64,000 nt of DNA. Origin: an uncultured Gammaproteobacteria bacterium (GTDB lineage: Bacteria; Patescibacteriota; Patescibacteriia; VMEV01; CAYQCH01). Of the stretch, positions 106-62,900 are shown one piece after another. The stretch lies in contig CAZDCG010000001.1 in the NCBI GenBank assembly GCA_964503955.1, positions 316,210 to 380,209 on the forward strand, in the 5' to 3' direction. How positions within the stretch are numbered: position 1 is the stretch's first letter; every line of letters begins with the position of its first letter. Under the pieces are notes generated by a model that searched no databases, was not told the DNA's origin, and worked only from the letters and a program-made list of their open reading frames with translations. Made by a program: the position numbers and the translations under genes.

Positions 106-221
106 AGGGGGCTACTGTTCTTAGATTGAATTGATTTATCTAGAGTTTATAGGTTTTAGTTTATAGGTTTTAGCCAAGGGTTGAAACTGAAAACTACAAC
201 CTAAAAACTACAACCTAACCT
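106..221 (+). promoter_or_regulatory. rpmI-rplT intergenic leader with two short tandem duplications (tttataggttttag x2; aaaactacaacctaa x2) and no SD before rplT
   Basis: Direct reading of the sequence. The last 13 nt, aacctaacctATG, are shared with the trpS upstream region. Confidence 0.3.
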
Positions 222-15128: not shown

Positions 15129-15739
15129 GACGGCCCCTTTCTTATTTTTGCCGAATCAACCATCATGCGGATGCAAACGATAAACGTCAACGAAACAGGG
15201 CCTTGTTTTTGACAAAATGTGATGACGAAAGCCCGTGGGGGGGCCAGGTTTCTAAAACAAACGAACTTTTCAGACTCATAGAAAATGACTATCTTCACAT
15301 CGTCACCCCCGCGGAGAAAGTTACTCTTTGCGAAGCAAAGTCTAAACATCGCCAGCGGGGGTCTCATTCTTTAAGAGGCATCGAACAGCCCCCCTCACTC
15401 AGTTGATCTCTTTCGATGCTTGATCCCGTCCCCCCTAAACAGGGGGAAGAGTAGGTGGAGGTATACGGAGAAGCGGAGGGATTATAAAGCCTATTCGGGC
15501 GCGGGGCTCCCTCCTTCGCTAAAGGCTTCGGCGGGCACGCTGTCTCCGCCCGGCACTATTACGTGAAATGGTAAAAATGCTTCACTGTATTGAGCTCCCA
15601 AAGGAAAGATCTGAAACCTGAATTCTGAATTCCGGATCTCTATCTGAGGCGGCTCAGAGTCAGAATTCCGATCCAGATTTCAGAATCCAGAGAGAATCTT
15701 CATTCTGACTGCCAAACGATTCCCTAAGAAAGCACGAAC

Positions 15740-25653: not shown

Positions 25654-25709
25654 AATTAGGTCTGTAGCCTTTGCCTACAGCCTACGACCTACTGCCTATC
25701 ACCTGATTT

Positions 25710-26855
25710 ATGGCTTCAGACGATCTCCTCTCCCGCTTTGACGCTTTGCTCGCGCCCTATGCCGTGCACAATGCAGGCGACCATCACCGCGCGTACAAAG
25801 AAGACGCACATCCCGACAAACTGCCGTTCGCGCGCGACCGGGATCGTATCGTGCATTCCAAGGCATTTCGCAGACTCAAACATAAAACCCAGGTAATCGT
25901 CAGCCCAAAAGACGATCATATCCGCGACCGCTTAACTCATAGCCTTGAAGGGGCCCAGATCGCGCGCAGCCTTTGCCGTTCCCTGCGGCTCAACGAAGAT
26001 CTAGCGGAAGCGGCCATCCTTGCCCATGATCTTGGCCATCCCCCGTTCGGCCATGAAGGCGAATACGCGCTGCATGAAATGCTTGAGCCGCTCGGATTTG
26101 CTTTTGATCATAATGCTCATGGCGAGCGCATCGTTACCTTGCTTGAGAAACAATATCCGGATTTTCCCGGATTGAACCTGACGCGTGAAACGCTGGCGGC
26201 TATTCGCAAACATCACGTACCGTGGGAAGATCCAAAAGCCACGCTGCCGCACCAGGCAAGCATTGAAGCGCAAATCGTCAATCTCGCGGATGAAATCGCC
26301 TACTACTCGCATGATATCGACGACGGGCTGCGCGCGCATTTGCTGAGAATCGAAGACCTGCTTGAATTGCAGATCGGCCGGGCCGTGCACAAAGTGATTG
26401 AAAAGCGCTATCCAAACCTTACGACCCATGACCGGCTCTATCGGCCGCAATTCGTCCGTTTCGTGATCCACCTGCTGATTGCTGACATTGTCAAAACAAC
26501 GGAACGGAATGTGCGCGACAAACAAATCTCTTCTCTGGCTGATGTCTACGCGCTTGATCATCCGGTCGCATCCTACAGCAAGCAGATGGATGACATGACC
26601 CAGGAACTGAGAAACTACCTGTATAAAACGTTCTATAGCTCTGAACCCGTTCGACGTTTCACGCAAGAAGGCCGCGAGCTTTTGCAGGAATTGTTTACGC
26701 AGCTCTATCAACGCCCGGAACATCTTCCCCAGCATATCCGCGAGCAGATCGACACCCTTGAACCGCGAGCCATTGTGGTCAAAGACTATATCGCGGGCAT
26801 GACCGACCATTTTGCCAAGGAGATGGTGTATAAGTTGAGAGGAAGCTTGGTATGA
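25710..26855 (+). CDS. dgt: dGTPase-like HD-domain triphosphohydrolase
   Basis: HSLEGAQIARSL...HDLGHPPFGHEGE HD motif of the dGTP triphosphohydrolase family. Confidence 0.85.
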   Translation: MASDDLLSRFDALLAPYAVHNAGDHHRAYKEDAHPDKLPFARDRDRIVHSKAFRRLKHKTQVIVSPKDDHIRDRLTHSLEGAQIARSLCRSLRLNEDLAEAAILAHDLGHPPFGHEGEYALHEMLEPLGFAFDHNAHGERIVTLLEKQYPDFPGLNLTRETLAAIRKHHVPWEDPKATLPHQASIEAQIVNLADEIAYYSHDIDDGLRAHLLRIEDLLELQIGRAVHKVIEKRYPNLTTHDRLYRPQFVRFVIHLLIADIVKTTERNVRDKQISSLADVYALDHPVASYSKQMDDMTQELRNYLYKTFYSSEPVRRFTQEGRELLQELFTQLYQRPEHLPQHIREQIDTLEPRAIVVKDYIAGMTDHFAKEMVYKLRGSLV

Positions 26856-27280
26856 CGGGTACAAATCACCAATCGGATACAAATTTACAAATATCCGGCG
26901 GGAAAGTCATTCACAAAGAACTAAGTTATACGATCGTAGGAATCCTGTTTGATGTTTACAATGAGCTTGGATATGGGCATAAAGAGAAGTATTATGAAAA
27001 CGCAATTGCCGTTGCTTTTGATACGAGGGGGATTAGTTATGAAAGACAAAAAAGAACGCCACTTTTCTTTCAAAATGCAAAAATAGGTGATTATTATTTA
27101 GATTTTCTCGTAGAAGAGAAAATTGTTTTAGAATTAAAGCGGGGAAATCGTTTCCCAAAATCACACATTGATCAAGTTATGGGTTATCTGAAACAGACGG
27201 GACTTCAACTGGCCATTCTCGCGACATTTTCTGTTGACGGTGTTAAGTTTCTAAGAGTTCTAAATGGAGTTAAAGAGTAG
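26852..27280 (+). CDS. GxxExxY family protein (PD-(D/E)XK-like; rRNA-IVS-associated family)
   Basis: ...ELSYTIVGILFDVYNELGYGHKEKYYENA...YYLDFLVEEKIVLELK... matches the GxxExxY family; the gene is bounded by ~36-bp terminal inverted repeats. Confidence 0.8.
   Translation: MTGTNHQSDTNLQISGGKVIHKELSYTIVGILFDVYNELGYGHKEKYYENAIAVAFDTRGISYERQKRTPLFFQNAKIGDYYLDFLVEEKIVLELKRGNRFPKSHIDQVMGYLKQTGLQLAILATFSVDGVKFLRVLNGVKE
26858..26895 (+). repeat. Left terminal inverted repeat of the GxxExxY cassette (gggtacaaatcaccaatcggatacaaatttacaaat)
   Basis: Reverse complement of 27280-27315 with 3-4 mismatches; near-identical copy at 48427-48460. Confidence 0.8.
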
Positions 27281-27315
27281 ATTTGTAAATTTGTAATGTA
27301 TTTGTGATTTGTACC
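27280..27315 (+). repeat. Right terminal inverted repeat of the GxxExxY cassette (atttgtaaatttgtaatgtatttgtgatttgtaccc)
   Basis: See the left repeat at 26858-26895. Confidence 0.8.
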
Positions 27316-27329
27316 CTTAATCATCCGCT

Positions 27330-28635: not shown

Positions 28636-28957
28636 CCTCTTCTTCTCGTCATTCCGGCGGATGAAGAATTCCTTGCAAAACAAGGCTTGCACCGGACAAG
28701 GCGAGAATCTCGAACTTCATCATCGTAGAGATTATTTATCGTTATAGATACCACCCCCAGCCCCTCCTTAAAGGAGGGGTGTTTGCTTTATTAATACTAA
28801 GTGGAATATATAGCCCCAAGAGCGACCCCACCTTATAGGAGGGGGCGCGACAAAGAAATTTTGTTAACAATCATCCCGCTGGTGGGGCGGTACTCGAAAA
28901 AAGAAAGCTCCATAAACGACTCGACCCCGCACAGTGCGTGAAAGCACCGTACGGGGT

Positions 28958-29950: not shown

Positions 29951-30138
29951 CTCCCTTTCACCGCGAGTTTAACAAAGATCGCCAAATGTGGCCACAATGG
30001 ATTGTTTTTTAGGCGTTTTTCTGATAAGCTCGCTGGGAACAAGACCCGCAGACGCAACAGACTCCTTAGACTTACAGACAAGGAAAATGCGATGTCTGTG
30101 AGTCTTAAAGATCTGTGAATCTGTTATGTCTCACGTTT

Positions 30139-31662
30139 ATGCTAAAATACGAACCCGTGATCGGACTTGAAGTCCATGTTCAGCTCAAAACCAAGAGCAA
30201 GATGTTCTGCGCCTGCGATAATACCGGCGAGCATCAGGCTCCAAATACCACCGTGTGCCCCATCTGCCTTGGGCATCCAGGCACGCTGCCCGTGCCAAAC
30301 CGCCAGGCAATAGACTGGTCCGTTATGACGTCCATCGCTCTGAATTGCGATGTGCCGCAGATTTCAAAATTCGACCGCAAGCACTATTTTTACCCCGATC
30401 TTCCAAAAGGCTATCAGATTTCTCAATATGATCAGCCTTTCGGCAGCAATGGAAAAATCCTGATCACGCTTGAAGACGGCACGCAAAAAGAAATCCGCAT
30501 TAACCGCCTTCATCTGGAAGAAGACGCGGCCAAACTCACCCACTCCGACCAGGGTTCATTTGTCGACTACAACCGCGCCGGCACGCCGCTCATGGAAATT
30601 GTCACTGAACCGGATATCCGAACCCCGGAAGAAGCAAAAGCGTATCTGCAGGAATTGCGCGCTATTGTCCGCTATCTGGGCGTTTCCGATGCCGACATGG
30701 AAAAGGGACATTTGCGCTGCGACGCGAATATCTCCCTGCGCCCGCTTTCCGATGACGAACCATTCCTCTATCCAAAAACGGAAATCAAGAACGTGAACTC
30801 ATTCCGAGCGGTGGAACGCGCTTTGCAGTATGAAATCAAGCGCCAGACCGAACTCTGGGAAGAAGGCAATCCGCCAAAAGTCACAACCACGCGCGGCTGG
30901 AATGACACCGAACAGCGAACAGAAGAACAGCGCACAAAAGAAGAAGCCGCCGATTACCGCTATTTCCCTGAACCGGATATCCCCCCTTTCCATTTCGGCT
31001 ACAATCTTTCTGAAGAAGACGCGGCCAAAGGCATAATCGATATCCGCGGCCTTGAAACGGAAATTCCGGAACTCCCGGCGCAGAAACGTGAACGCTTCAT
31101 CAAAGAATACGGGCTCGATGCGCGCGGTGCTCATACCGTGATCTATGACCAGGATTTATCCGGCTACCTTGAACAGGTGATCAGCGAGCTTGAAAACTGG
31201 ACCAAGCATCATGACGATCTCTCCTGGGAAAAACATGGCCGGGAATTAGTGCGTTCTTCCGCCGGCTGGCTGACAAGCAAGTTCAGCAAGCTTTTGATCG
31301 ACACGGAAAGCACGATCAAAACGACCAAGGTCACGGCTGAAAATTTTGCGGAAATGATGATTATGCTGCAGAAAGGTGAAATCAACAGCACGACCGCGCA
31401 GAAAGTACTTGTGATCATGCATGAAACCGGCGGAGACCCGTCAAATATCGTCCAGACTCAGGGTTGGGCGCAGATGAATGATACCAACGCGCTTGAAGGT
31501 ATAATCAAAGAAGTGATTGCCGCGAATGAAAAAGTCGTTAACGACTATAAAGGAGGCCAGGAAAACGCGGTCCAGTTTTTGCTCGGCCAGGTCATGAAGG
31601 CCAGCAAAGGCAGCGCCAATCCGCAGGTTGCCATGGAACTTCTTAAGAAACTTCTCTCTTAA
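30139..31662 (+). CDS. gatB: aspartyl/glutamyl-tRNA(Asn/Gln) amidotransferase subunit B
   Basis: YEPVIGLEVHVQL...CPICLGHPGTLP... canonical GatB; start set at MLKYEPVIG (the track ORF starts 24 nt earlier at GTG). Confidence 0.95.
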   Translation: MLKYEPVIGLEVHVQLKTKSKMFCACDNTGEHQAPNTTVCPICLGHPGTLPVPNRQAIDWSVMTSIALNCDVPQISKFDRKHYFYPDLPKGYQISQYDQPFGSNGKILITLEDGTQKEIRINRLHLEEDAAKLTHSDQGSFVDYNRAGTPLMEIVTEPDIRTPEEAKAYLQELRAIVRYLGVSDADMEKGHLRCDANISLRPLSDDEPFLYPKTEIKNVNSFRAVERALQYEIKRQTELWEEGNPPKVTTTRGWNDTEQRTEEQRTKEEAADYRYFPEPDIPPFHFGYNLSEEDAAKGIIDIRGLETEIPELPAQKRERFIKEYGLDARGAHTVIYDQDLSGYLEQVISELENWTKHHDDLSWEKHGRELVRSSAGWLTSKFSKLLIDTESTIKTTKVTAENFAEMMIMLQKGEINSTTAQKVLVIMHETGGDPSNIVQTQGWAQMNDTNALEGIIKEVIAANEKVVNDYKGGQENAVQFLLGQVMKASKGSANPQVAMELLKKLLS

Positions 31663-31672
31663 ACATACTTGT

Positions 31673-32164
31673 ATGTCACAAACCGTTGCCGATGCCATGA
31701 ACGAGCGCGTCCACGGCAATACCATCCAGGATAAAATCGACGAAGATTACAAAGCGGCCTTCAAAGCCAAGGACGAACCGAGATTCAAGGCGCTACGCCC
31801 CGTGCTTGCCAAGCTGAAACAGGAAACCATTGACCGCCGCCATGAATTATCCGATGAAGAAATCCAGCAGGTATTGCGCACGGAAATCAAAAGCCGCAAA
31901 GACGCGACTGAACAGTTTAAACAAGGCGGCCGCGAAGATCTCGTTGAGCAGGCGGCCTATGAAATTTCCTTGATTGAAAGCTATCTGCCGGCCCAGATGC
32001 CAGACGAACATCTTGAAGCGATTGTCCGCGAAACCCTGGCTGCGATTGGCGCCTCCTCTCCTGCCGATATGGGCAAAGCCATGGGAGCTGTCATGGCCAA
32101 AGTGAAAGGCCAGGCTGATGGAGGAAGAGTAAAGGCTATGGTGGAGAAAGTGCTTAATGGATAA
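31673..32164 (+). CDS. yqeY: GatB/YqeY domain protein
   Basis: ...RFKALRPVLAKLKQETIDRRHELSDEEIQQVLRTEIKSRKDA...GKAMGAVMAKVKGQADG typical of YqeY; start at MSQTVAD. Confidence 0.8.
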   Translation: MSQTVADAMNERVHGNTIQDKIDEDYKAAFKAKDEPRFKALRPVLAKLKQETIDRRHELSDEEIQQVLRTEIKSRKDATEQFKQGGREDLVEQAAYEISLIESYLPAQMPDEHLEAIVRETLAAIGASSPADMGKAMGAVMAKVKGQADGGRVKAMVEKVLNG

Positions 32165-32165
32165 A

Positions 32166-32203
32166 GCTAAAAAGCTGAAAAACTCAAAAGCTTAAAAAGG
32201 CGC
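32166..32203 (+). repeat. Left inverted repeat flanking the four-helix-bundle gene (aaagctaaaaagctgaaaaactcaaaagcttaaaaagg)
   Basis: Reverse complement of 32655-32705 (gtctttatttttttagtttttcagctttttagcttttcagttttttg) matches with a few mismatches. Confidence 0.65.
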
Positions 32204-32276
32204 GGATGGTCCGGGCCTTTTTTGTGAATACGTGCTATAATTAATGCAAATTTAATTCTCTCTGCCCACACCTTTA

Positions 32277-32654
32277 ATGAATCATTTTATGAGTGGCGGA
32301 GCCTATAAGCAATTAGAAGACCGGACGACCATGTTTGCGATACAGGTTATCCGGTTTTGTCGTTCTGTAGGAGAAAAGCACTTATCAACAAGCATTGTTA
32401 ATCAAATAATACGCTCCGCGAGCTCTGTAGGGGCCAATTACAGAGAAGCAAACGAAGCCAAATCTCACAAAGAAAAGCTATACTTTCTTTATATCGTCAA
32501 AAGAGAGCTGAAAGAAACACAGTATTGGCTAGACGTGCTTGAGGAATTCGAAAATCCAACCATCGATTCTCAACGTAAAAACTTGCGAAAAGAGGTTACA
32601 GAATTACTAAATATTTTTATGAGTATCATTTTTTCCTTCCAAAAGAAAAAGTAA
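32277..32654 (+). CDS. four-helix-bundle protein (23S rRNA intervening-sequence protein family)
   Basis: ...IRSASSVGANYREANEAKSHKEKLYFLYIVKRELKETQYWLDVL... is the characteristic family signature. Confidence 0.8.
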   Translation: MNHFMSGGAYKQLEDRTTMFAIQVIRFCRSVGEKHLSTSIVNQIIRSASSVGANYREANEAKSHKEKLYFLYIVKRELKETQYWLDVLEEFENPTIDSQRKNLRKEVTELLNIFMSIIFSFQKKK

Positions 32655-32705
32655 GTCTTTATTTTTTTAGTTTTTCAGCTTTTTAGCTTTTCAGTTTTTT
32701 GAACT
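32655..32705 (+). repeat. Right inverted repeat flanking the four-helix-bundle gene
   Basis: See 32166-32203. Confidence 0.65.
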
Positions 32706-35317: not shown

Positions 35318-36667
35318 CTAGACAAGCTCGCCGAATAAACCGAAAGGCCGAGCCTCGGTCACAAGGACATCCACAAATTGCCCTGTATAGTCACGGGCGG
35401 CAAAAAACTGCGTTGTTTTAAACAGGTCGGATTTTCCGGAATTTTTAAACAGGCCGTCTTCCTGCTGCTCGGCTTCATCAACAAGCACACGGATGGTTTT
35501 GCCAATCAACTTATCATGCTGCTCCTGTGCGGTTGTTTTCAAAATTTCATTGAGTACTTTTTCACGGCGGCGCTTTTCTTCCCATGGCACATCGTCGATA
35601 AACTTGCGCTCGGAAACAGCACCGGGCCGCGGAGAATATTTGTTGATATACGCCAAATCGTATTTCACCTCTTTCATAAGCTCGGCGGTTTGTTCGAATA
35701 ATGCTTCCGTTTCACCGCAAAATCCCACGATAATATCGGTTGAAATAGCAACCGGATCAAGCAGCTCACGGATTTTTGCCAAACGTCCTTTATAATGTTC
35801 AACCGTATAATGGCGGTTCATTTTTTTCAGAATTTCATCAGACCCGGCCTGCACGGGCAAATTGATATAGTTCACGATTTTATCGTGCTTTGCCATAGTT
35901 TCAATCAGCTTGTCGGACATGTCATACGGATGCGAAGTGATGTAACGGATCCAAAAGTCGCCTGGAATCTGGGCGACCATTTCAAGCAGATCTGGAAAAT
36001 CTACTGCAACAACCTGCGAGCCGCCCGCTTGCTGTGCTTTGCGATTTATCACAAGCAGGCCGCGCTTTTCCTGCGGCTTATCATATTGCCCCGCATAACT
36101 ATTCACGTTTTGGCCAAGCAGCGTGATTTCCTTATAACCTTTTGCCACAAGCTGACGGCATTCGTCTAAAATGTCATTGACGGGGCGGGAGATTTCTCGG
36201 CCGCGAGTATACGGGACCGCGCAATAGGTACAGAATTTATCGCAGCCCGTCATGATCGGAACATATGCCTTGAAGTCTGATTGATGCTTGGGCGGAACAG
36301 CAAAGTAATCAGCCAGATCAAGCGCTTCTCCTTCGCCGATGATTTCCGGAATTTTTGGGATATCCTCAAGATTAACAACATGGTCGAATTCCTTGCCCAG
36401 GCGCTCGCGGTCATGCTGCAAAATGCAGCCTGTCAGAATGGTCGTCAGCTCCCCTTTTTCCTGGCGAGGCCGCCAATGGCGCAGCTTGCCATAAATACGG
36501 TCCATGGAAGTCTGGCGCACCGCGCAGGAATTCACCACAACCACATCCGCCTCAGCTTCAGAGGGACTTTCAACGTAATTGAGATGCTTAAAAACCGATG
36601 CGACTCGTTCCGAATCAGACCGGTTTTGCTGGCAGCCCAAGGTTAAAATATGGTATTTCTTGGCCAT
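35318..36667 (-). CDS. miaB: tRNA-i6A37 methylthiotransferase (radical SAM)
   Basis: N-terminal MTTase domain (HILTLGCQQNRSDSE), radical-SAM CxxxCxxC (CDKFCTYC), C-terminal TRAM domain. Confidence 0.9.
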   Translation of the reverse strand: MAKKYHILTLGCQQNRSDSERVASVFKHLNYVESPSEAEADVVVVNSCAVRQTSMDRIYGKLRHWRPRQEKGELTTILTGCILQHDRERLGKEFDHVVNLEDIPKIPEIIGEGEALDLADYFAVPPKHQSDFKAYVPIMTGCDKFCTYCAVPYTRGREISRPVNDILDECRQLVAKGYKEITLLGQNVNSYAGQYDKPQEKRGLLVINRKAQQAGGSQVVAVDFPDLLEMVAQIPGDFWIRYITSHPYDMSDKLIETMAKHDKIVNYINLPVQAGSDEILKKMNRHYTVEHYKGRLAKIRELLDPVAISTDIIVGFCGETEALFEQTAELMKEVKYDLAYINKYSPRPGAVSERKFIDDVPWEEKRRREKVLNEILKTTAQEQHDKLIGKTIRVLVDEAEQQEDGLFKNSGKSDLFKTTQFFAARDYTGQFVDVLVTEARPFGLFGELV

Positions 36668-36812
36668 AGAGTAGAGGGCATCTTAGAGGAAATCGGGTTT
36701 GAATTCAAGCGGGAAGACGCACAGACATAACAGACTCTACAGACGCACAGACTGTTTTTGGAAAATGTGATTTGTCTGTGAGTCTAAAACGTCTGTGAAT
36801 CTGTGCGTCTGC

Positions 36813-38009
36813 TTACAGCGTGTCGTCCATCGTCAGCGGGACAAGAGTTGCCGCAAACATCACGAGGGCCAAAAAGACAAATACCCCGTTTAAAGAAACT
36901 CCGGCCGCGAGCAGCAAAGAAGCAGCTACCGGCCCGATAACATACGCAAGCGGCCCTGTGCCACGGAAAAGATTGATCAAATCAAGATCGTCCGCGTCCA
37001 CTTTTTTGTAAAAATATGTATCGCGCATGATTTCAACCAAGGCGGCTCCCACGCGCGAACAGAAAAGAATGACCATCAATGCGGCAAAACTGGAAAAGAA
37101 AATCATCGCCAGACCGCAAATCCCCATCAAGGCGAATCCGACGGCGAGCATTTCCGTTTCGCCAAGGTATTTATCTGCCAGCCAGCCGGCCGGGTACTGG
37201 ATTAAAGCAAACGGAATAAGCATGACGGTAAAAATTTGGCCGATTTTCTCCCATGATAATCCCAAATCCAGCAGATAAATCGGCGTATAAATCACCATGA
37301 ATGAATAGAAAAAGGAAAGCAGCAGCGCCACAAGATAAATCCCTCGCAGATTTTTATCTGCAAGAATTTCTTTGAGCGCTGCTTTCAATTTAATCTGCCT
37401 TCGATATTTTTCATGTCCGTTATTTCTGTACGTAGCAAAAATCATTCCCCAAACGGGAATAAGCACAAGCGCGGCCAGAAAATAGGTTTGTGAAAATCCA
37501 TACCGCTCAACAAGAACACCGGTTATCGTCGGCGCAACCACAAAAGCAAGATTCACGCAGGTCCAAAACAAACCTCGAATACGGCCGGTTTCACTGTTTC
37601 TGGTAACAAATTCCAACAGAACATCGAAATTGATGACAATCACCGCATTCGCGCAAATCCAAACAAGAAAAGCGGCCAGGGACAGAGCTGGGTGCAGATT
37701 CACGGATAGCAAAAGAAGGGCACATACCTGCACAATCAACACGGTGAGAAAGACAACATGATTCTTGAATTTTTCAATGAAGCGGCCGTAGTATTGAATC
37801 AACAAAAAGGCGAGCGCATACCCCAACGCGAAAAATGACCCGACCACGGATTTGGGAATAAGCGTTTCAAGAAAGGACGAATTGATATACGCCACCAGCG
37901 CGCCTGAGGCACTTGCAAAAAAACCGCATGAGAGGATGACCTGGATAAGACTGCGATTTTGTTTGCGCGTAGCTTGAATGATTTCTGGCATATGAAAATA
38001 TTGTAACAT
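36813..38009 (-). CDS. MFS transporter
   Basis: 12-TM profile in two 6-TM halves. Confidence 0.8.
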   Translation of the reverse strand: MLQYFHMPEIIQATRKQNRSLIQVILSCGFFASASGALVAYINSSFLETLIPKSVVGSFFALGYALAFLLIQYYGRFIEKFKNHVVFLTVLIVQVCALLLLSVNLHPALSLAAFLVWICANAVIVINFDVLLEFVTRNSETGRIRGLFWTCVNLAFVVAPTITGVLVERYGFSQTYFLAALVLIPVWGMIFATYRNNGHEKYRRQIKLKAALKEILADKNLRGIYLVALLLSFFYSFMVIYTPIYLLDLGLSWEKIGQIFTVMLIPFALIQYPAGWLADKYLGETEMLAVGFALMGICGLAMIFFSSFAALMVILFCSRVGAALVEIMRDTYFYKKVDADDLDLINLFRGTGPLAYVIGPVAASLLLAAGVSLNGVFVFLALVMFAATLVPLTMDDTL

Positions 38010-38189
38010 ATCTACCTTGAAGGATCTCCCCCTCCATATCTATTTTTTTAGTCACTATATTTCTGCCCCTCTTCAAAAGAGGGGGAACATTTTTGTTCTC
38101 TTCTTCCCCCTTTTGAAGGGAGATTGGGATCAAGATGGAAAGGGGAGCAACTAACTGAGGGGGATCCTCAAATCAAAAAACCCACTCCG

Positions 38190-42983: not shown

Positions 42984-43157
42984 AGTTGGGGACGGCTTTG
43001 TTGTTTGTCTGATGGTCTATATTATACGAGAAACAAGCGAGTATAGTCAAAATCAAGATATCTAAATTCTGAGCGCTGGATCAGAATTCTTTCTCAGAGC
43101 CGACTCAGGTCCAGAGAAAGAGTCCAGAACTCAGGATTCAGCGATGCACTGCTATAC

Positions 43158-46100
43158 CTAACTTACCACCCGCAAACTTCCAGGGCCGGTGATCTTTTGA
43201 ATCTGATAGCGCGATTCTTCATTGATGGCGATGCGATAGCTCGTCTTAATGGTGCGGTGTTCGGTTTGGCCCACCTTTAAATACACCGGCACATTGCCTT
43301 TGTAACGTTCAAATAAATGTTTCAGCTGATCGGTTCGGAAAGGGTCCGGCAGAGCCGGAAGATGAAAATACACCCCGGACGGCTCTTTCTGCGAGCCGAT
43401 CGTTTGCGATGGATCGGTTGGCAATCGTCCTTGGGAAAGAATTTTTTTCAATTCAGGCAAATTCTCGTCCGTAATCACCCAGGCAGTATCGCAAATCAGT
43501 TTGGCCTGCCCGTCGCGCGTAGAGACTTTGGCACGCACAAGCACCGACTGGTCATTCATCCAGATATTTGGAGCCTGCGCAAAAGTGCGCGGGAAGATAA
43601 TCAATTCTTTGCTGCTTGAATCGTCTTCGATCTGGCAAAACGACATCAAATCGCCTTTTTTGGTCGTGATCGTTTTCGCATCCGTAATCATGGCAGCCAC
43701 GCAGACAAGATGATTATCCGGACAGTCATCGATGCGTTCCAGCTTAGATACCTTGCCGTCAAAGGCTTTGGCGATCTTTTTGAATGGATGGCTGCTTAGA
43801 TATACGCCAAGGAGCTCTTTTTCCCACATCAGCTGTTCTTTGGCCGAAGCGGGATCGACCGGCTGCAAGTAGAGACTGGCCTGCTCCTTTTGCATGGAAG
43901 AAAAGAGCATGCTTTGCCCCGAACTTTTCACCTGCTGCTGAATTTTGGCAAAGCTGAGGATCTGCTCCATATTCATAAGCACCGTATTGCGTTCCGCCAA
44001 TGAATCAAGCGCGCCGGCTTTGGCTAAATTTTCCAGTGTTTTCTTGTTGAGATTACGGTCCTCAACGCGCGTCATCAAATCAGCAAGGTCTTTGAACGGA
44101 CCGTTTTTCTTTCGCTCTTCAATAATGACATCAATAATTCCCTGCCCCACGTTTTTAATCGCCAATAGACCAAAGCGGATCGTCTTGCTGTCCATGACCG
44201 TGAAGTTAGACAGGCTTTCATTGATATCAGGGGCAAGAACGCGGATACCAAGGCGCTGGCATTCGCGGATCGCGTCGGCGATTTTTCCCAAATCATGATA
44301 TTCCGCCGTCATCAGCGCGGCCATATACTCCACCGGGAAATTGGCCTTCATATAGGCGGTCTGATACGCGACCAGCCCATACGAAGCCGCATGCGCCTTG
44401 TTAAATCCGTACGCGGCAAACGGTTCAATCAGTTTGAATAAGTCCTGCGCCTGCTTCTTGGTCAGACCGCCATGCGACTGGGCCCCGTCAATAAACTTTT
44501 CTTTCTGCGCGGCCATCTCGGCTGGAATCTTTTTTCCCATGGCTTTGCGCAGCTTATCGGCCTCAAGCCAGTCGTATCCAGCAATAGTAATAGCCGTAAG
44601 CAAAACGTCGTCCTGATAGGTCATGATCCCGTATGATTTTTCAAGCACGGTTTCAAGACGCGGATCAGGATAGGTGACTTTAGAAGGATCCTTTTTGCGC
44701 GCGATATATTCAGGAATCGATTCCATCGGACCGGGGCGGAACAGCGCGACCATGGCCATGATGTCATGGATGGTGGTTGGCTGCAGCTCCATTAAGTAGC
44801 GCGTCATGCCGCGGCCGCCCAGCTGGAAAACACCAAAGGTCTGTCCTTTAGAAAGCATGTCAAAGGTTTTGGGATCGTCTAGCGGAATATTGAGAATATC
44901 AATTTCCTTGCCTCGTGTGCGTTTGATAATTTCAATCGCGCGTCCAAGGATGGACAAGTTGCGGATCCCAAGAAAATCCATTTTTACAAGCCCGGCTTCC
45001 TCAATGGATTTCATTTCATACTGCGTCACGTTGCCGCCGGTATCAGGATCAACCTGCACGGCGGTAAAGTCCGTCAGCGGGCCGGGCGCGATGACCACAC
45101 CCGCCGCGTGAATCGAACTATGCCGCGCGCAGCCTTCCACTTTCTTGGCATAATCAAGCAGTCGGCGGGTATTCGGTTCAGTCTGATACGCTTTTTTGAG
45201 TTCGGGATTTTCCTCGAGCGCGCGTTCAATGGTCATAGGAAATCCCTGCGCGCCCATGGGAATCATTTTGCTGATGCGGTCCACATCCCCGTAGCGCATG
45301 CCAAGCGCGCGGCCCACATCGCGCACGGCCCCGCGCGCCGCCATGGTTCCAAAGGTGATGATATGCGCAACCTTGTCCTCGCCGTATGTATCAATCACGT
45401 ACTGCACCACCTCATGGCGGCGATCATCCTGGATATCGAAATCGATATCAGGGGCAGACGGACGGAGCGGGTTTAAGAAACGTTCAAATGGCAGATTATA
45501 ATCAAGCGGGTTAACATCAAGAATTTCCATCGAATATGAAACAAGCGAACCCGCGGCCGATCCACGCGTCGTGCTCATAATCCCCTGCTTTTTTGTCCAT
45601 TTACAGAAATCCGAATAAATCAAAAAGTACTCAGGATATTTTTTCACTTTGATGATTTCAAGCTCATAGCGAAGCCGTTCAATCACGAAAGCATCATCCT
45701 GATCGAATCGTTCTTTGATTTGTTCAATGGTCGCGGCTTCGGCTTCCTCAGCGTTCATATAGCCGTAACGGACCGCCAATCCGCGATGCGCGCGGTCATA
45801 CAGCCACTCATCGGCCGTATAGCCTTGCGGGATTTCATAGAGCGGAAAATGAAATTCTCCCAGCGGAATTTCAAGCTCGATTTTTTCTGCCACGCGGACC
45901 GTTTCATCCACTGCTTCAGGATGATCCGCAAAGCCGGAGCGGATCTGCTCTTCGGACTTCATGGATAAATCCACCTCGCGCATGTCCAGGCGATTGGTAT
46001 CGCTCACTTCCTTGCCGGTGCCGATACACACGAGCAAATCCTGCGCTTCCGAATCCTCTTTATGTAAATAATGGCAGTCGCAGGTTGCGACCGTTTTGAT

Positions 46101-48295: not shown

Positions 48296-48426
48296 ATGTA
48301 TTTGTTTTTGTCTAAAGGTAGTATATCAATGTTGCTTATTTCTGTCAGGGGTACAGATCACGAATGCATTACAAATAGACAAAGCCTGTCAAAGCTGACG
48401 ACAAACCGTTTGTGAGATGCAGCCCA

Positions 48427-48460
48427 TTTGTAAATTTGTATCCGATTTGTGATCTGCCCC
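48427..48460 (+). repeat. Solo copy of the GxxExxY-cassette inverted repeat (atttgtaaatttgtatccgatttgtgatctgccc)
   Basis: Near-identical to the rc of 26858-26895 and to 27280-27315; lies just downstream of pheT. Confidence 0.7.
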
Positions 48461-48475
48461 CTCCATCATGCTCGT

Positions 48476-50866: not shown

Positions 50867-50883
50867 ACATGCTAATATTGCTC

Positions 50884-51278
50884 TTCACTACAAATTACAA
50901 ATTTTACGACGAATCTACAAATCGAGATTCAATACACGCATAAACTTACACCGGAACTAGTGAAGTTTGCCAGAATCGCCAATTGTGTTTTTGTCGTTTT
51001 TAAATAATCCTTGACCTGTTGGATATTTTTTCGAGAAAAATGATTACCTTGCTTTAACTCAAGGATAATTTTTCCTTCGACCAAAAAATCAAGATAGAAT
51101 GTCCCTATTTTCTTTTCTTTAAAGAACAAACGAGCGTGTAACTGACGTTCATATTCCATTCCCTTTTCATCAAGTTATAGACTTCAAAGAGAATTTCTAC
51201 AATCTGATAACTCAATTCACTGTAAATTACCTTCTGTTCTGACACTTGTAGATTTGAAGCCAATTTGTAATTCGTAGT
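50884..51278. mobile_element. Degenerate GxxExxY cassette (inverted-repeat bounded) inserted between pheS and pheT
   Basis: Inverted repeats cactacaaattacaaatt...aatctacaaatc (50884-50925) and cttgtagatttg...caatttgtaattcgtagtgg (51245-51278) flank a truncated GxxExxY ORF. Confidence 0.65.
50929..51159 (-). pseudogene. truncated GxxExxY-family gene (C-terminal half only)
   Basis: MEYERQ...FYLDFLVEGKIILELKQGNHF...QVKDYLKTTKTQLAILANF aligns to the C-terminal half of 26852..27280; the N-terminal GxxExxY region is missing. Confidence 0.6.
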
Positions 51279-51285
51279 GGAGAAA

Positions 51286-52347
51286 TCAAAATTGCTCCAA
51301 AAATCTCAAATCATTTCGATACAGTTCGCGCAAGTCAGGAATCGAAAGCCCTTCGCGCATTAACGCGACGCGCTCAACCCCCCAGCCGAAAGCGAATCCA
51401 TTGTACTTCTTCGTGTCAATCTTTCCCGCTTTGAGTACATTTGGATGCACCATGCCGGATCCTCCAAGCTCAAGCCATCCTTCCTTACAGAATTTGCAGC
51501 CTTCACCTTTGCAAAGTCCGCAGGTGATATCGATTTCAAAGCTCGGCTCCGTAAACTTGAAATGAAATGGCCGGAACCGGATTTCACGATCCTGCCCGAA
51601 AAAGGATTTGGCAAAATATTCCATCACGCCTTTCAGATGGCTGATACTTACGCCCTCATCGATGTACAAACCCTCAAACTGATGAAACATTTGCGTATGC
51701 GTCACGTCGGCCTGGCGGCGATAGCATTTGGCAATATTGATCATGCGGATGGGCAGCTCTCCTTTTTCCATTTCACGCACCTGCGCATTAGACGTATGCG
51801 GCGTAAGGATGACGCGTTCTCCTTTGGCATCCGGTTCGGTGACAAAGAAGGTTTCCCAGTCATCGCGCGCGGGATGATCCTGCGGCATATTCAGCCCTTC
51901 AAACGCGTAGTAATCTGATTCCACTTCAGGATAGCGGACGCGCGCAAACCCAATGCGTTTGAAAATGTCGGTGATTTCACGGATCGTTTGAGTGACCAAA
52001 TGCAAATGGCCTTGCGCGGGAGCAAGCGGCGGCAAGGTCAAATCAACCGCCAGCGAAGCCTCTTCCGCTTCCTTCTTTTTTCCCTCGTAAGCGGCTTCAA
52101 GCGCTTTTTTCAGCTCATTCGCCAATGGACCGATTTCACGTTTTTCTTCCACCGGCAGCCCGCCAAGCGACTTCATAATTTCCGTGAGCTTTCCCTGTTT
52201 GCGGCCGAGATATTGAATATGCCACGCGTCAAGCGCTTTGAGATCTGTCACTTGTTTAAGCGCATCAAGCGCCTCTTTTCGAAGTTGGTCTAACTTGTCT
52301 TTCATAATGATTTGGTAACATCTGGAAACGTATGGTACGTCTGGCAT
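51286..52347 (-). CDS. pheS: phenylalanyl-tRNA synthetase alpha subunit
   Basis: Class II motifs; ends ...LRFLEQF followed by a TGA stop, which shows TGA is a stop in this genome. Confidence 0.95.
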   Translation of the reverse strand: MPDVPYVSRCYQIIMKDKLDQLRKEALDALKQVTDLKALDAWHIQYLGRKQGKLTEIMKSLGGLPVEEKREIGPLANELKKALEAAYEGKKKEAEEASLAVDLTLPPLAPAQGHLHLVTQTIREITDIFKRIGFARVRYPEVESDYYAFEGLNMPQDHPARDDWETFFVTEPDAKGERVILTPHTSNAQVREMEKGELPIRMINIAKCYRRQADVTHTQMFHQFEGLYIDEGVSISHLKGVMEYFAKSFFGQDREIRFRPFHFKFTEPSFEIDITCGLCKGEGCKFCKEGWLELGGSGMVHPNVLKAGKIDTKKYNGFAFGWGVERVALMREGLSIPDLRELYRNDLRFLEQF

Positions 52348-61112: not shown

Positions 61113-61190
61113 TGTTCACGTGTTAATGAGTTAACGTGTTAACGGGTTTGCCTTGAACGCGTTAACTCATGAACATGCTAACCCGTTAAC

Positions 61191-62900
61191 ATGTCCTACA
61201 ACGAACTTATCAAACAAATCGTCGCGCAACAACCGTCATCCAGAAACGAGATGCAGACGATCATTCGTACACATATCAAATCACGCGGAGCATCCTTTCC
61301 GCGTTTTTCGCATTTGCTTGAAGCCTATCGATCCTTGGTGGCCGGCAAGGAGCTTGAAGCGCAGCCCTGGCTTGAGCCGCTGCTTATCAAACGCGCGATC
61401 CGCACGCTTTCGGGCGTAGCGCCTGTCCATGTCATGACGGCACCGCTTGGATGTCCGGCCAATTGCCTGTACTGCCCGAATGAGCCGGGCATGCCCAAAA
61501 GCTATCTTTCCAATCAGCCGGGTTCCATGCGCGCGATTCTCAATGACTTTGACCCGTACAAACAAGTCACCATGCGGCTGCGCGCGCTCTATCAGAACGG
61601 ACACCATCCCGAAAAAATCGAATTGGTTGAAAATGGCGGAACATGGACCGCGCTGCCACGTCGTTACCGCACCTGGTTTATCACCCGCTGCTATCAAGCT
61701 GCCAATGATTTTGATCCTCAAGACTTTGTCAAAACAACGGACTTCATTCCGTCTAATAATTCCCGTTTGACGATTTTAAACCGGCTCAAAGAACAGCCTG
61801 ATCATCTGCTGAAAGCATCGCTGCGCTTGCATGACGAAGACGACGAGGATTTGCTTACCGAACTTTTTGCCGCGCAAAAGATGAATGAAACAGCCCGCTA
61901 TCGCATCATCGGCATCACGCTTGAAACCCGCCCTGACTGGCTGGCTGATGATGAAATCCATCACCTGCGTCTCATGGGCTGCACCAAGCTTGAGATCGGC
62001 GTACAAAGCATCAATGAAGAAGTATTGAAATGGAATAATCGCGGACATGGCGTAGAGGCAGTTATTAACGCGACGCAAGCCTTGCGCGACGCGGGCTTTA
62101 AAGTCGGCTACCATATGATGCCGGGGATGTTTAAGTCCACACCGGAATCAGACAAACAAATGTTTGTGGAGCTCTTCGCCAACCCCGCGTTTAAGCCGGA
62201 CTTTCTCAAAGTTTATCCTTGCGTTGTCGTGCAAGAAGCTCCTCTGTATAAACTCTGGGAGCGCGGTGAGTATAAACCCTATGAAGGAGACGAACTCATC
62301 GACGTACTGATTACCATTTCACAGACCTTCCCCCGCTATTGCCGCGTCGCGCGCCTCATTCGCGATATTCCTTCAGAAAGTATTTCGGGCGGGAATAAAA
62401 TCACCAATCTCAGAGAAGTCGTTGAGCAAAACATGCGCCAGCTTGGAATTGCTTCGCAAGATATCCGCGCTCGCGAAGTCATGGGCAATGTGCAGAATGA
62501 AGAACTGGCGCACAATGATCTCGTGTATGAAACCATCAACGGCGAAGAGCATTTCCTCAGCTTTGACGGGCAGGATTCCGACAAGCTCTACGCATTCCTG
62601 CGCTTGCGGCTCCCGCAAAGCAATTCCCATTTGATCAAAACAACCTTTCCCGAGCTGATGAATGCCGCGCTGATCCGCGAAGTGCATACCTATGGCAAGC
62701 TCGCGCGTATTGGAAATGACGATGAGACAAAGCAGGCGCAACACAAAGGACTTGGCAAACAGCTGATGGAAAAAGCCGAAGAGCTTGCGCGCAATCGTGG
62801 TTATAAAAAAATCGCCGTCATCGCCGGCGTGGGAACGCGCGAATATTATCGAAAATTCGGCTACGAGCTTGAGGGGACATATATGGTGAAACCGCTCTAA
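61191..62900 (+). CDS. Elp3-like radical SAM + GNAT acetyltransferase (tRNA U34 modification family)
   Basis: Radical-SAM Cys cluster (GCPANCLYCPN), a large radical-SAM core, and a C-terminal GNAT fold (...[41 protein letters not shown]). Confidence 0.8.
   Translation: MSYNELIKQIVAQQPSSRNEMQTIIRTHIKSRGASFPRFSHLLEAYRSLVAGKELEAQPWLEPLLIKRAIRTLSGVAPVHVMTAPLGCPANCLYCPNEPGMPKSYLSNQPGSMRAILNDFDPYKQVTMRLRALYQNGHHPEKIELVENGGTWTALPRRYRTWFITRCYQAANDFDPQDFVKTTDFIPSNNSRLTILNRLKEQPDHLLKASLRLHDEDDEDLLTELFAAQKMNETARYRIIGITLETRPDWLADDEIHHLRLMGCTKLEIGVQSINEEVLKWNNRGHGVEAVINATQALRDAGFKVGYHMMPGMFKSTPESDKQMFVELFANPAFKPDFLKVYPCVVVQEAPLYKLWERGEYKPYEGDELIDVLITISQTFPRYCRVARLIRDIPSESISGGNKITNLREVVEQNMRQLGIASQDIRAREVMGNVQNEELAHNDLVYETINGEEHFLSFDGQDSDKLYAFLRLRLPQSNSHLIKTTFPELMNAALIREVHTYGKLARIGNDDETKQAQHKGLGKQLMEKAEELARNRGYKKIAVIAGVGTREYYRKFGYELEGTYMVKPL
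62798..62900 (+). repeat. elp3 3' end, copy 1 of a ~92-bp direct repeat
   Basis: ttataaaaaaatcgccgtcatcgccggcgtgggaacgcgcgaatattatcgaaaattcggctacgagcttgaggggacatatatggtgaa is repeated at 63638-63730 with ~6 mismatches and one 1-nt deletion. Confidence 0.8.

What the first reader, a model, noticed from the sequence alone, without database searches (positions are those of the whole stretch)
30040..30138. Dispersed imperfect-palindrome element (family A: GTCTGTGAGTCT...TCTGTGAATCTG) immediately upstream of SD-less start codons
30085-30135 (ggaaaatgcgatgtctgtgagtcttaaagatctgtgaatctgttatgtctc) and 36765-36810 (ggaaaatgtgatttgtctgtgagtctaaaacgtctgtgaatctgtgcgtctg) are ~80% identical. Each sits inside a ~100-nt imperfect palindrome rich in CAGAC/GTCTG words (cagacgcacagac ... 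gtctgtgcgtctg). The gacataacagac of one copy is the reverse complement of gtctgttatgtc in the other. One element ends 3 nt before the gatB ATG. The other lies between the MFS gene end and the miaB start. This could be a MITE-like repeat, an RNA processing or terminator structure, or a shared regulatory or translational element for SD-less genes.
Basis: seen in the sequence. Interest (0 to 1): 0.55.

Follow-up and report, generated by a model that had tools for sequence, protein, structure and literature searches.

The report
Dispersed word-array hairpin repeat in CPR bacterium
Two diverged copies of a roughly 95-base non-coding hairpin repeat sit in gene-boundary slots of an ultra-small (CPR) bacterium; they belong to a wider set of "short-word" palindromes that elsewhere in this genome and in related genomes enclose tiny selfish-looking genes, and they are not a special translation signal.

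Summary
Two elements (30041-30131 and 36714-36810) align in register at 84-87% identity. Each has five AGAC words, a conserved loop (GGAAAATGYGA) and five GTCT words, with a period of 8-9 nt, and each folds into an interrupted hairpin (z -4.8 to -9.6). The similarity goes beyond the words (0 of 2000 word-preserving shuffles reach it).

The organism is a Parcubacteria-group (CPR) bacterium. Five syntenic relatives lack the copy upstream of gatB, and the spacer in the window is about one element longer, so it looks like an insertion. Copy 1 lies between a predicted gatB promoter and the ATG. Copy 2 lies between the MFS stop codon and the predicted miaB promoter, so the two copies have different roles in transcription. 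Lack of a Shine-Dalgarno (SD) sequence is the norm in this genome (about 10 of 63 genes have one), so the translational reading is not supported.

Family A is one of at least six families of word-array palindromes here. Sister families form the inverted arms around GxxExxY nuclease genes and four-helix-bundle (23S-IVS/Avd-like) genes, and the same words recur in other CPR genomes.

Best reading: a REP/MITE-like dispersed hairpin that has no ORF, with effects on RNA ends or RNA processing. The number of copies in the whole genome, the means of mobilisation and any RNase III cleavage remain untested.

The parts
30041..30131 (.). Family A copy 1, whole element (91 nt): five AGAC words, loop, five GTCT words
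   Evidence: CM R1 scores 104.9 bits. Fold -35.9 kcal/mol, z -5.4.
30041..30081 (.). Copy 1 left arm: AAGAC ccg CAGAC gcaa CAGAC tcct TAGAC tta CAGAC aa
   Evidence: Read. Arm-to-arm duplex -35.6 kcal/mol, z -6.5.
30082..30093 (.). Copy 1 loop GGAAAATGCGAT. Contains ATG CGA TGT CTG TGA, a 4-codon mini-ORF.
   Evidence: The loop is identical to that of copy 2 at 10 of 11 positions.
30094..30131 (.). Copy 1 right arm: GTCTG tga GTCT taaaga TCTG tgaa TCTG ttat GTCT
   Evidence: family D12, 91% identical to copy 2.
36714..36810 (.). Family A copy 2, whole element (97 nt)
   Evidence: CM R1 scores 116 bits. Fold -44.5 (+) and -46.4 (-) kcal/mol, z -6.2 and -9.6. Highest-scoring short-loop hairpin in the window.
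36714..36759 (.). Copy 2 left arm: AAGAC gca CAGAC ataa CAGAC tcta CAGAC gca CAGAC tgttttt
   Evidence: Chain of 5 AGAC words at 7-10 nt spacing.
36760..36773 (.). Copy 2 loop GGAAAATGTGATTT. ATG is followed directly by TGA (start-stop).
36774..36810 (.). Copy 2 right arm: GTCTG tga GTCT aaaacg TCTG tgaa TCTG tgc GTCT
30002..30030 (+). Predicted gatB promoter: TTGTTT-N14-TGATAAGCT (-35 plus extended -10). It ends 10 nt before copy 1.
   Evidence: This is the only match to TTGNNN-N14-TGNTANNNT in the 200 nt upstream. The same motif occurs once in 4 of 5 relatives. Inference only, not mapped.
30139..31662 (+). gatB (507 aa), no SD
   Evidence: Pfam GatB_N and GatB_Yqey. Exact protein also on Logan contigs.
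36680..36708 (-). Predicted miaB promoter on the minus strand: TTGAAT-N17-TAAGAT. The -35 box lies 5 nt from copy 2.
   Evidence: Promoter-like matches sit at a similar distance from the ATG in L003, L005 and L007. Inference only.
35318..36667 (-). miaB (449 aa)
   Evidence: Pfam UPF0004, Radical_SAM and TRAM.
36813..38009 (-). MFS transporter gene. Its stop codon (36813-36815) is 2 nt from copy 2.
   Evidence: Pfam MFS_1; sequence.
26852..27324 (+). Sister class with an ORF: GxxExxY (PD-(D/E)XK) gene enclosed by a TACAAAT-word arm (26852-26892) and an ATTTGTA-word arm (27281-27324). Inserted between the HD and tmk genes.
   Evidence: Arm duplex -38.9 kcal/mol, z -10.2. L003 and L007 have only a 5-nt spacer at this site.
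32163..32690 (+). Sister class with an ORF: four-helix-bundle (23S_rRNA_IVP, TIGR02436) gene 32277-32654 enclosed by AAAGCTAA-word arms that are 96% complementary
   Evidence: Same cassette and same words in L005.
48347..48462 (.). ORF-less hairpin of the TACAAAT/ATTTGTA family (43 nt between the arms)
50875..51290 (-). Frameshifted GxxExxY pseudogene enclosed by ACAAAT and ATTTGTA arms
15590..15725 (.). Family B hairpin, copy 1 (CTGAA/TCAGA words)
43055..43160 (.). Family B hairpin, copy 2 (opposite orientation), just after the dnaE stop codon
46700..46895 (.). Three-armed AGAY/ATCT/AGAT word-array structure upstream of dnaE. One loop reads TGAAAAATGTAAG.
144..218 (.). Hairpin of 14-nt duplicated units between rpmI and rplT, ending 3 nt before the rplT ATG
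61114..61195 (.). GTTAAC-word palindrome filling a divergent intergenic region

Best explanation
Family A is a non-coding, dispersed, imperfect-palindrome repeat of about 91-97 nt. It works like a REP or MITE element.

Shown:
- The two copies descend from one sequence.
- Copy 1 is missing from the orthologous site in five relatives.
- Each copy sits in a permissive slot flush against gene signals. Copy 1 lies between the predicted gatB -10 box and the ATG. Copy 2 lies between the MFS stop codon and the predicted miaB -35 box.
- Family A is one of at least six families of 'word-array hairpins' in this CPR genome. In these, each arm is a run of 4-7-nt words repeated every 7-9 nt, and the two arms are inverted.
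- Sister families are the inverted arms around tiny ORFs (GxxExxY PD-(D/E)XK nuclease; four-helix-bundle S23p/Avd-like protein). That is the layout of a 23S rRNA intervening sequence, but here it is inserted between protein genes.

Inferred:
- Family A is the ORF-less form of such an element and spreads or persists as selfish or neutral DNA.
- When co-transcribed, it folds into a rod of five short helices separated by internal loops. That rod would cap the 5' end of gatB mRNA and the 3' end of MFS mRNA. It could protect those ends or be cut by RNase III.
- It is not a ribosome-recruiting signal.
For: Common descent: 84-87% identity in register, including the loop (10 of 11 positions) and the right-arm spacers. 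No word-preserving shuffle reaches the observed score (0 of 2000).

Hairpin: z -4.75 to -9.6 on both strands. These are among the top hairpins in the window, and 10 of the 11 top hairpins are intergenic.

Insertion-like behaviour: there is no AGAC/GTCT array in the hyp|gatB spacer of L003, L005, L007, L041 or L042. The distance from the -10 box to the ATG is 108 nt in the window and 9-64 nt in relatives. Removing the 91-nt element leaves 17 nt.

Different transcriptional contexts and opposite transcribed strands for the two copies.

Class membership: other dispersed hairpin families occur in the same genome. Family B scores 78 and family C scores 60. Arrays with periods of 7-9 or 14-16 nt are about 18-fold enriched in the 13% of the window that is intergenic.

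ORF-bearing relatives:
- GxxExxY and four-helix genes are enclosed by arms with duplex energies of -29 to -39 kcal/mol, z -5 to -10. That is the same range as the family A arms.
- In L040, L037 and the window, ACRAAT words lie upstream and ATTYGT words downstream of GxxExxY. L035 has the words but not this clean polarity.
- An ORF-less hairpin with related words sits in L005 at the HD|tmk junction, exactly where the window carries the GxxExxY cassette.
- A four-helix gene flanked by AGAT/ATCT words occurs at L028:1-610.

Precedent for the layout: the Coxiella IVS has an S23p ORF in the loop and a 28-bp stem of terminal inverted repeats that RNase III cuts (PMC4990558).
Against: - Only two strict copies were found in about 68.5 kb of this genome. 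The genome-wide number is unknown, because the source contig (454,799 bp) could not be retrieved.
- There is no target-site duplication at either copy.
- There is no transposase or RAYT in the window; the only recombinase is a tyrosine integrase in an unrelated island.
- No family A copy with an ORF in its loop was seen, so the link to ORF-bearing cassettes is by shared architecture, not by sequence.
- With two sequences there is no informative covariation: 25 of 29 pairs never vary.
- Spacers between words are mostly unpaired. That is odd if only stem stability mattered.
- A hairpin ending 7 nt before the gatB ATG should hinder initiation unless it is melted or cleaved.
- Promoters are consensus matches only.
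Confidence: 0.58

Rival explanations
1. Host-selected RNA structure. The hairpins are maintained because they benefit the host: a 5' stabiliser or RNase III processing site for gatB mRNA, and a U-tract-less terminator or 3' stabiliser for the MFS transcript. On this view the two copies are similar because one functional module was duplicated.
For: Strong predicted folding on the transcribed strand of each copy. Copy 2 occupies the slot where L005 and L007 carry a different, G+C-rich palindrome (CCCCCT...AGGGGG) between MFS and miaB. That suggests some hairpin is wanted there. Copy 1 starts about 3-4 nt after the predicted transcription start.
Against: There is no U tract and no terminator call. 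The gatB site lacks any hairpin in five relatives, so none is required there. Spacers are not kept complementary and there is no covariation. The same architecture surrounds selfish-looking ORFs elsewhere.
Confidence: 0.2
2. DNA operator arrays. The AGAC/GTCT words, spaced 8-9 bp apart in two inverted blocks of five, are cooperative binding sites for a small DNA-binding protein. This would resemble ribbon-helix-helix repressors on tandem 7-8-bp boxes, such as MetJ metboxes (AGACGTCT) or omega heptads (from my own knowledge). The protein would control the adjacent promoters.
For: Words are conserved while spacers vary, as expected for recognition of the words. Both copies directly abut predicted promoters: 10 nt from the gatB -10 box and 5 nt from the miaB -35 box. 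Folding is equal on the two strands, which fits a DNA-level palindrome.
Against: At least six different word families occur in 64 kb. Each would need its own protein in a very small genome. No AGACGTCT octamer occurs in either copy. The arrays are absent from the same promoters in relatives. Sister arrays travel with specific small ORFs across genomes rather than with host promoters.
Confidence: 0.1
3. Translation element for SD-less genes. The element would replace the Shine-Dalgarno sequence and recruit ribosomes to gatB and miaB.
For: Both downstream genes lack an SD, and copy 1 ends 7 nt before the gatB ATG. Other word arrays (CCTAC, AACCCG) also end at ATG codons.
Against: About 50 of 63 genes lack an SD, with or without an array. 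Copy 2 is 46 nt from the miaB ATG, upstream of its predicted promoter, and in the opposite orientation relative to transcription. gatB in five relatives starts without the element. A stable hairpin next to the start codon would hinder initiation rather than help it.
Confidence: 0.04
4. Independent local slippage. Each array arose in place by replication slippage of an 8-nt unit plus quasi-palindrome correction, and the resemblance between the two is due to low-complexity chance.
For: Arrays show hierarchical 8/16-nt and 14-nt duplications. Similar octamer arrays, (GTCTGTGA)n, turn up in unrelated metagenome contigs.
Against: The loop and right-arm spacers are shared. No word-preserving shuffle reaches the observed score (0 of 2000). 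Slippage may well shape the arms, but it cannot explain two copies with the same order of word variants.
Confidence: 0.03

Closest known systems
REP / REPIN elements (repetitive extragenic palindromes, mobilised by RAYT transposases) - from my own knowledge
   Same: Short imperfect palindromes confined to extragenic space. They occur in either orientation, in several sequence families per genome, and are co-transcribed as hairpins at the ends of mRNAs. As with REPs around RAYT genes, sister families here flank a small nuclease-type gene in inverted orientation.
   Different: No RAYT (Y1 transposase) was found. The flanked genes are a PD-(D/E)XK GxxExxY protein and a four-helix-bundle protein. 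The arms are internally periodic (words every 7-9 nt). The copy number seen is two, not tens to hundreds. The host is a CPR bacterium.
MITEs that form RNA hairpins, e.g. Neisseria Correia/NEMIS elements processed by RNase III - from my own knowledge
   Same: Non-autonomous, roughly 100-nt elements with inverted ends. They are inserted next to genes, differ in presence between relatives, and are co-transcribed with effects on mRNA processing and stability.
   Different: No target-site duplication, no recognisable terminal inverted repeat of a known IS, and no partner transposase. The whole element is one hairpin built of repeated words.
23S rRNA intervening sequences (IVS) carrying an S23p / four-helix-bundle ORF (PMC4990558)
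   Same: Terminal inverted repeats form a stem of about 28 bp that encloses a loop. In the sister elements at 32163-32690 and L028:1-610, the loop holds a PF05635 ORF. The IVS is regarded as a selfish element excised by RNase III.
   Different: Family A has no ORF. All elements here lie between protein-coding genes, not in rRNA helices 9, 25 or 45. Excision has not been shown.
Cyanobacterial STRR (short tandemly repeated repetitive heptamers) - from my own knowledge; mentioned in papers found
   Same: Intergenic arrays of a 7-8-nt unit, in several sequence families per genome, with unknown function.
   Different: STRRs are described as head-to-tail arrays of near-identical heptamers in heterocystous cyanobacteria. 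Here the units are degenerate (a conserved word plus a variable spacer), few in number (4-5), and paired with an inverted array to make a hairpin.

Membership tests
REP/REPIN-RAYT system | Short imperfect palindromes restricted to extragenic DNA | tested here: met
   Both copies are intergenic and fold with z -4.75 to -9.6.
REP/REPIN-RAYT system | Tens to hundreds of copies per genome | not testable with these tools
   Two copies in about 68.5 kb. The source genome is not in the searchable collections, and its 454,799-bp contig was not returned.
REP/REPIN-RAYT system | Cognate RAYT (IS200/IS605-type Y1 transposase) gene flanked by the repeats | tested here: not met
   No Y1_Tnp or other transposase among the window's proteins (Logan gene tables). 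Only 64 kb was examined.
MITE | Target-site duplication flanking the element | tested here: not met
   Flanks are GGGAAC|...|CACGTTT for copy 1 and GCGGG|...|GCTTAC for copy 2. There is no direct repeat.
MITE | Presence or absence at orthologous sites | tested here: met
   Absent from hyp|gatB in L003, L005, L007, L041 and L042, and from MFS|miaB in L003, L005 and L007. These relatives are distant (GatB 67-73% identical), so this is weak evidence.
MITE | Related autonomous element with matching terminal repeats | tested here: not met
   None in the window or in L028/L033.
23S rRNA IVS-type element | Terminal inverted repeats forming a stem of about 20-30 bp | tested here: met
   25-29 predicted pairs in five helices. 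The reference feature is described in PMC4990558.
23S rRNA IVS-type element | ORF of the S23p/PF05635 family in the loop | tested here: not met
   The family A loops are 12-21 nt. This feature is met only by the sister elements at 32163-32690 and L028:56-415.
23S rRNA IVS-type element | Located in a 23S rRNA helix and excised by RNase III | tested here: not met
   There is no rRNA in the window; the elements lie between protein-coding genes. RNase III cleavage cannot be tested with these tools.
Intrinsic (Rho-independent) terminator | G+C-rich stem followed by a U tract | tested here: not met
   No terminator-like site at either copy. The element's G+C content is 0.42-0.43. Canonical terminators do exist elsewhere in the window.
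Any curated RNA family (Rfam 15) | Match at or near the gathering score | tested here: not met
   Only miRNA-hairpin noise, E 0.8-3.6 and 15-17 bits against cut-offs of 49-90 bits. Nothing at gathering threshold in the window except tRNA-Asp.
MetJ-type metbox operator | Tandem 8-bp AGACGTCT boxes | tested here: not met
   AGAC words recur every 8-9 nt, but no AGACGTCT octamer occurs in either copy.

The most novel reading that the evidence does not exclude
The word-array palindromes may not be passive hairpins. They could be the specific substrates of the small proteins they enclose. For example, TACAAAT/TACGAAT arrays could be recognised and cut by the GxxExxY PD-(D/E)XK nuclease. That would make a previously undescribed family of tiny mobile cassettes in CPR bacteria, either REPIN/RAYT-like or homing-like. 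These cassettes would insert exactly at stop/start junctions of operons and would be looped out, and perhaps excised, at the RNA level like rRNA intervening sequences. On this reading family A is an 'empty' or orphan member whose partner ORF lies elsewhere in the genome.
Probability: 0.25. Interest if true: 0.8.

Novelty: new variant of a known kind. Interest (0 to 1): 0.55.

Why it matters
CPR/Patescibacteria genomes are small and are usually thought to be poor in repeats. Here about a third of the longer intergenic regions carry structured word-array palindromes from several dispersed families.

If these are selfish hairpin elements, they show that even streamlined genomes host non-autonomous repeats, and that these sit exactly at promoter, start and stop boundaries.

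The link to GxxExxY and four-helix-bundle (S23p/Avd-like) genes offers a testable handle on two very widespread protein families of unknown function. It also bears on the old question of where rRNA intervening sequences come from.

On the practical side, these repeats break metagenome assemblies (contig L001 ends inside one and L028 starts in one), and they can be mistaken for regulatory motifs.

Tried and rejected
- Exact-pattern scans for the family A core. In genome contigs (5 hits) and metagenome contigs (15 hits) I found only chance matches or unrelated octamer microsatellites, and not the window itself. The source genome is therefore not in those collections. The viral-contig scans gave nothing, or one coding-sequence coincidence.
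- A covariance model built from the two copies found no further members in 140 kb: the window, L028, L033, L003, L005 and L007.
- Attempts to reach the rest of the source genome. The NCBI contig of 454,799 bp is on record for P0121, but only short Logan contigs, all 100% identical to the window, were returned. This added only about 4.5 kb.
- Rfam: no family matched.
- Covariation analysis is uninformative with two sequences.
- Canonical terminator and sigma-70 scans found nothing at the elements apart from a weak upstream promoter-like site.
- Literature searches for GxxExxY/PF13366, STRR, and CPR repeats found no description of these arrays. PDDEXK_3 is listed as 'function unknown' in PMC3424549.
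- I considered and dropped several ideas for lack of any defining feature: integron attC sites, CRISPR-like arrays, a T-box or riboswitch upstream of gatB, and an sRNA gene.
- The apparent asymmetry between the copies (right arm and loop more conserved than the left arm) rests on too few positions to interpret.

Full report
**Observation.** The two stretches exist as described. It runs 30041-30131 (91 nt) and 36714-36810 (97 nt), in register over 98 columns at 87% mean identity, or 84% with flanks. Each copy reads AAGAC-CAGAC-CAGAC-(T/C)AGAC-CAGAC, then a loop GGAAAATG(C/T)GA, then GTCTG-GTCT-TCTG-TCTG-GTCT, with words every 8-9 nt. These are the only two clusters of GTCTG/CAGAC in the window: 4 and 7 words per 100 nt, against a mean of 0.22. 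They are two of only four exact 4-mer chains of at least four words in the window; shuffled sequence gives 0.2. Both copies fold into long interrupted hairpins on either strand, at -35.6 to -46.4 kcal/mol and z -4.75 to -9.58. Copy 2 is the best short-loop hairpin in the whole window.

The resemblance is not only shared low-complexity words. The loop matches at 10 of 11 positions, and the right-arm spacers TGA and TGAA are identical. When every AGAC/GTCT word of copy 2 is held in place and the rest is shuffled, 0 of 2000 shuffles reach the observed alignment score (88, against a mean of 44.2, sd 9.2).

The element ends 7 nt, not 3 nt, before the gatB ATG.

**Organism and data limits.** GatB, YqeY, MiaA, MiaB, ThrRS, PheST, TrpRS and DnaE identify a small housekeeping-rich genome. 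The closest GatB relatives are 72-73% identical, and the named ones are Parcubacteria-group or Patescibacteria. Short Logan contigs from four runs (SRR11843815, -816, -827, -830) are 100% identical to the window. A protein of the window is on record on an NCBI contig of 454,799 bp, but that contig could not be fetched. The source genome is also not in the two large DNA collections. I could therefore read only about 4.5 kb beyond the window (L028:1-2564 and L033:5475-7454). A covariance model of the two copies found no third copy in 140 kb, which included five kinds of locus. The genome-wide copy number is the main open number.

**Context of the two copies.** In five of six genomes, the spacer upstream of gatB holds exactly one match to TTGNNN-N14-TGNTANNNT. 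In the window this match is at 30002-30030, so copy 1 begins 10 nt after the -10 box, a few bases after the likely transcription start. The distance from the -10 box to the ATG is 108 nt here and 9-64 nt in the relatives. Removing the 91-nt element leaves 17 nt. None of the five syntenic relatives (L003, L005, L007, L041, L042) has an AGAC/GTCT array there.

Copy 2 starts 2 nt after the MFS stop codon and ends 5 nt before a promoter-like TTGAAT-N17-TAAGAT, which lies 12 nt from the miaB ATG. Relatives have similarly placed promoter-like sites. So copy 1 is probably the 5' end of the gatB mRNA, and copy 2 the 3' end of the MFS transcript, read from the opposite strand. Neither copy is followed by a U tract. 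These promoter assignments are consensus matches and therefore inference.

**SD-less genes.** Only about 10 of 63 predicted starts have GGAG/GAGG/AGGA upstream. gatB and miaB are therefore typical genes in this respect. Together with the context above, this removes the case for a shared translational element.

**The wider class.** Family A is not alone. Arrays with periods of 7-9 or 14-16 nt are concentrated in the 13% of the window that is intergenic (14 of 19 TRF rows). Six of the 11 best hairpins are built of such arrays. They fall into families that each recur:
- B: 15590-15725 and 43055-43160 (score 78).
- C: L033:6060-6185 and L028:470-610 (score 60).
- A TACAAAT/ATTTGTA family.
- A GTTAAC/AACCCG family.
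- A CCTAC family.
- An AAAGCTAA family.

By my reading, about 16 of 45 intergenic gaps of at least 40 nt carry one.

**Arrays that enclose ORFs.** Some of these palindromes enclose small ORFs:
- 26852-27324 holds a GxxExxY (PF13366/TIGR04256, PD-(D/E)XK) gene between 41-nt arms.
- 50875-51290 holds a frameshifted copy of the same gene family between arms made of the same words.
- 32163-32690 holds a four-helix-bundle gene (PF05635/TIGR02436) between arms that are 96% complementary.
- L028:56-415 holds another four-helix gene, flanked by AGAT/ATCT words.

Arm-to-arm duplexes are -29 to -39 kcal/mol (z -5 to -10). The family A arms fall in the same range. The TACAAAT family also has an ORF-less member at 48347-48462.

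**Comparison with other genomes.**
- The HD|tmk junction is a 5-nt spacer in L003 and L007. In L005 it holds an ORF-less TACGAAT-word hairpin, and in the window it holds the GxxExxY cassette.
- GxxExxY genes in other CPR genomes are flanked in the same way. These are L040 (Parcubacteria), L037 (Kerfeldbacteria, where the gene sits between rpsG and fusA) and L035. Each flank carries 3-5 ACRAAT words upstream and 3-4 ATTYGT words downstream, against a background of 1-2.6 words per kb. L035 has more words and lacks the clean polarity.
- The four-helix cassette at yqeY|miaA recurs in L005 with the same AARCTNAA words, including one change on both arms (AGCTG to ATCTG). A four-helix gene also sits there in L042. 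The cassette is absent from L003, L007 and L041.
- This layout, a stem of terminal inverted repeats with an S23p-type ORF in the loop, is that of the 23S rRNA intervening sequence. The IVS is regarded as a selfish element cut out by RNase III (PMC4990558). PF05635 is also the family of the DGR accessory protein Avd (PMC10053308). PDDEXK_3 is still listed as function unknown (PMC3424549).

**Mechanism.** The best-supported reading is that family A is an ORF-less member of this class of dispersed hairpin elements. It would have been copied to, or retained at, permissive slots next to gene signals.

What is shown: homology of the two copies, the palindromic word architecture, absence from orthologous sites in relatives, and membership of a class that includes ORF-bearing units.

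What is inferred: that the element is mobile or selfish, that it is transcribed, and that the RNA rod protects transcript ends or is processed by RNase III.

The pattern of conserved words with drifting, mostly unpaired spacers is not explained by stem stability alone. It leaves room for word-specific recognition by a protein. That is the basis of the operator-array rival, and also of the more novel reading in which the enclosed nuclease recognises its own arms.

**Known kinds and novelty.** The element works like REP/REPIN or hairpin-forming MITEs, and the sister cassettes work like rRNA IVSs. It fails strict membership of each. There is no RAYT or other transposase in the window, no target-site duplication, no ORF in the family A loops, and no rRNA location. 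No Rfam family matches, and my literature searches found no description of such arrays in CPR bacteria. I therefore rate it as a new variant of a known kind, of moderate interest. Most of that interest lies in the link between the arrays and the small ORFs rather than in the two family A copies themselves.

Noticed in passing
window 26852-27324; L040:5955-6430; L037:5948-6435; L035:5860-6500: GxxExxY (PF13366) genes in four different CPR genomes are bracketed by arrays of the same word: ACRAAT upstream and ATTYGT downstream (TACAAAT or TACGAAT). The cassettes sit exactly between the stop and start codons of host operon genes: HD|tmk, rpsG|fusA and GtrA|dnaX. The word appears to travel with the gene.
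   Followed up: partly
window 32163-32690; L005:12180-12641; L042:2390-2875: A four-helix-bundle (23S_rRNA_IVP) cassette sits at the same yqeY|miaA site in three genomes and is missing in three others. The window and L005 share AARCTNAA words in both arms, with one change that occurs on both arms (AGCTG to ATCTG). In the window the cassette carries its own terminator and a TGCTATAAT promoter inside the loop.
   Followed up: partly
window 30082-30101, 36760-36770, about 46815-46835: The hairpin loops carry a purine run followed by ATG and an immediate or near-immediate stop codon: GGAAAATGTGA, GGAAAATGCGATGTCTGTGA and TGAAAAATGTAAG. These could be start-stop relics of a deleted loop ORF, or coincidence.
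   Followed up: no
window 5372-9350: A G+C-rich island (60-71% against 51.7% for the window) of about 3.9 kb sits next to tRNA-Asp (5372-5447). It has a tyrosine integrase gene (5390-6628, minus strand) and a 29-nt direct repeat of the tRNA 3' end at 9322-9350. This looks like a small integrated element.
   Followed up: partly
whole window: Only about 10 of 63 predicted starts have an SD-like motif. Many ATG codons are directly preceded by CT (for example AACCTATG, CCCCTATG, CCACTATG, CTACTCTATG), which suggests a lineage-specific start context.
   Followed up: partly
window 180-221, 25670-25709, 54717-54756: CCTAC-word arrays (C/A-rich, G-poor) end directly at the ATG codons of rplT, the HD-domain gene and trpS, always in the sense orientation. 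Unlike family A, these are one-armed or nearly so, and could be real leader elements.
   Followed up: no
L028:2375-2470 and window 144-218: Both junctions of the infC-rpmI-rplT operon are filled by word-array hairpins (GTTAAC words, and AGTTTATAGGTTTT/AAAACTACAACCTA units). In the second hairpin, each arm contains a perfect 14-nt duplication, as if the two arms were extended in step.
   Followed up: no
window 28760-28845 and 38030-38130; L005:15178-15276; L007:15735-15815: This is a different, G+C-rich palindrome type (CCCCCT...AGGGGG). It recurs in the window, and in two relatives it occupies the MFS|miaB spacer where the window has family A copy 2.
   Followed up: no
L021:1720-1910 and L009:2950-3050 (unrelated metagenome / Bacteroidetes MAG contigs): Long octamer arrays, (AAAGTCTAT/GTCTGTGA)n, are followed by an inverted GACTTT array in a divergent intergenic region. 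Word-array palindromes are therefore not confined to CPR bacteria.
   Followed up: no
window 62806-62890 and 63645-63729: An 85-nt direct repeat, 94% identical. The second copy duplicates the C-terminal coding end of the radical-SAM/acetyltransferase gene (61191-62900) about 840 nt downstream.
   Followed up: no
L001 end (window 32684) and L028 start: Independent short-read assemblies break inside word arrays, so these repeats fragment metagenome assemblies of this organism.
   Followed up: no
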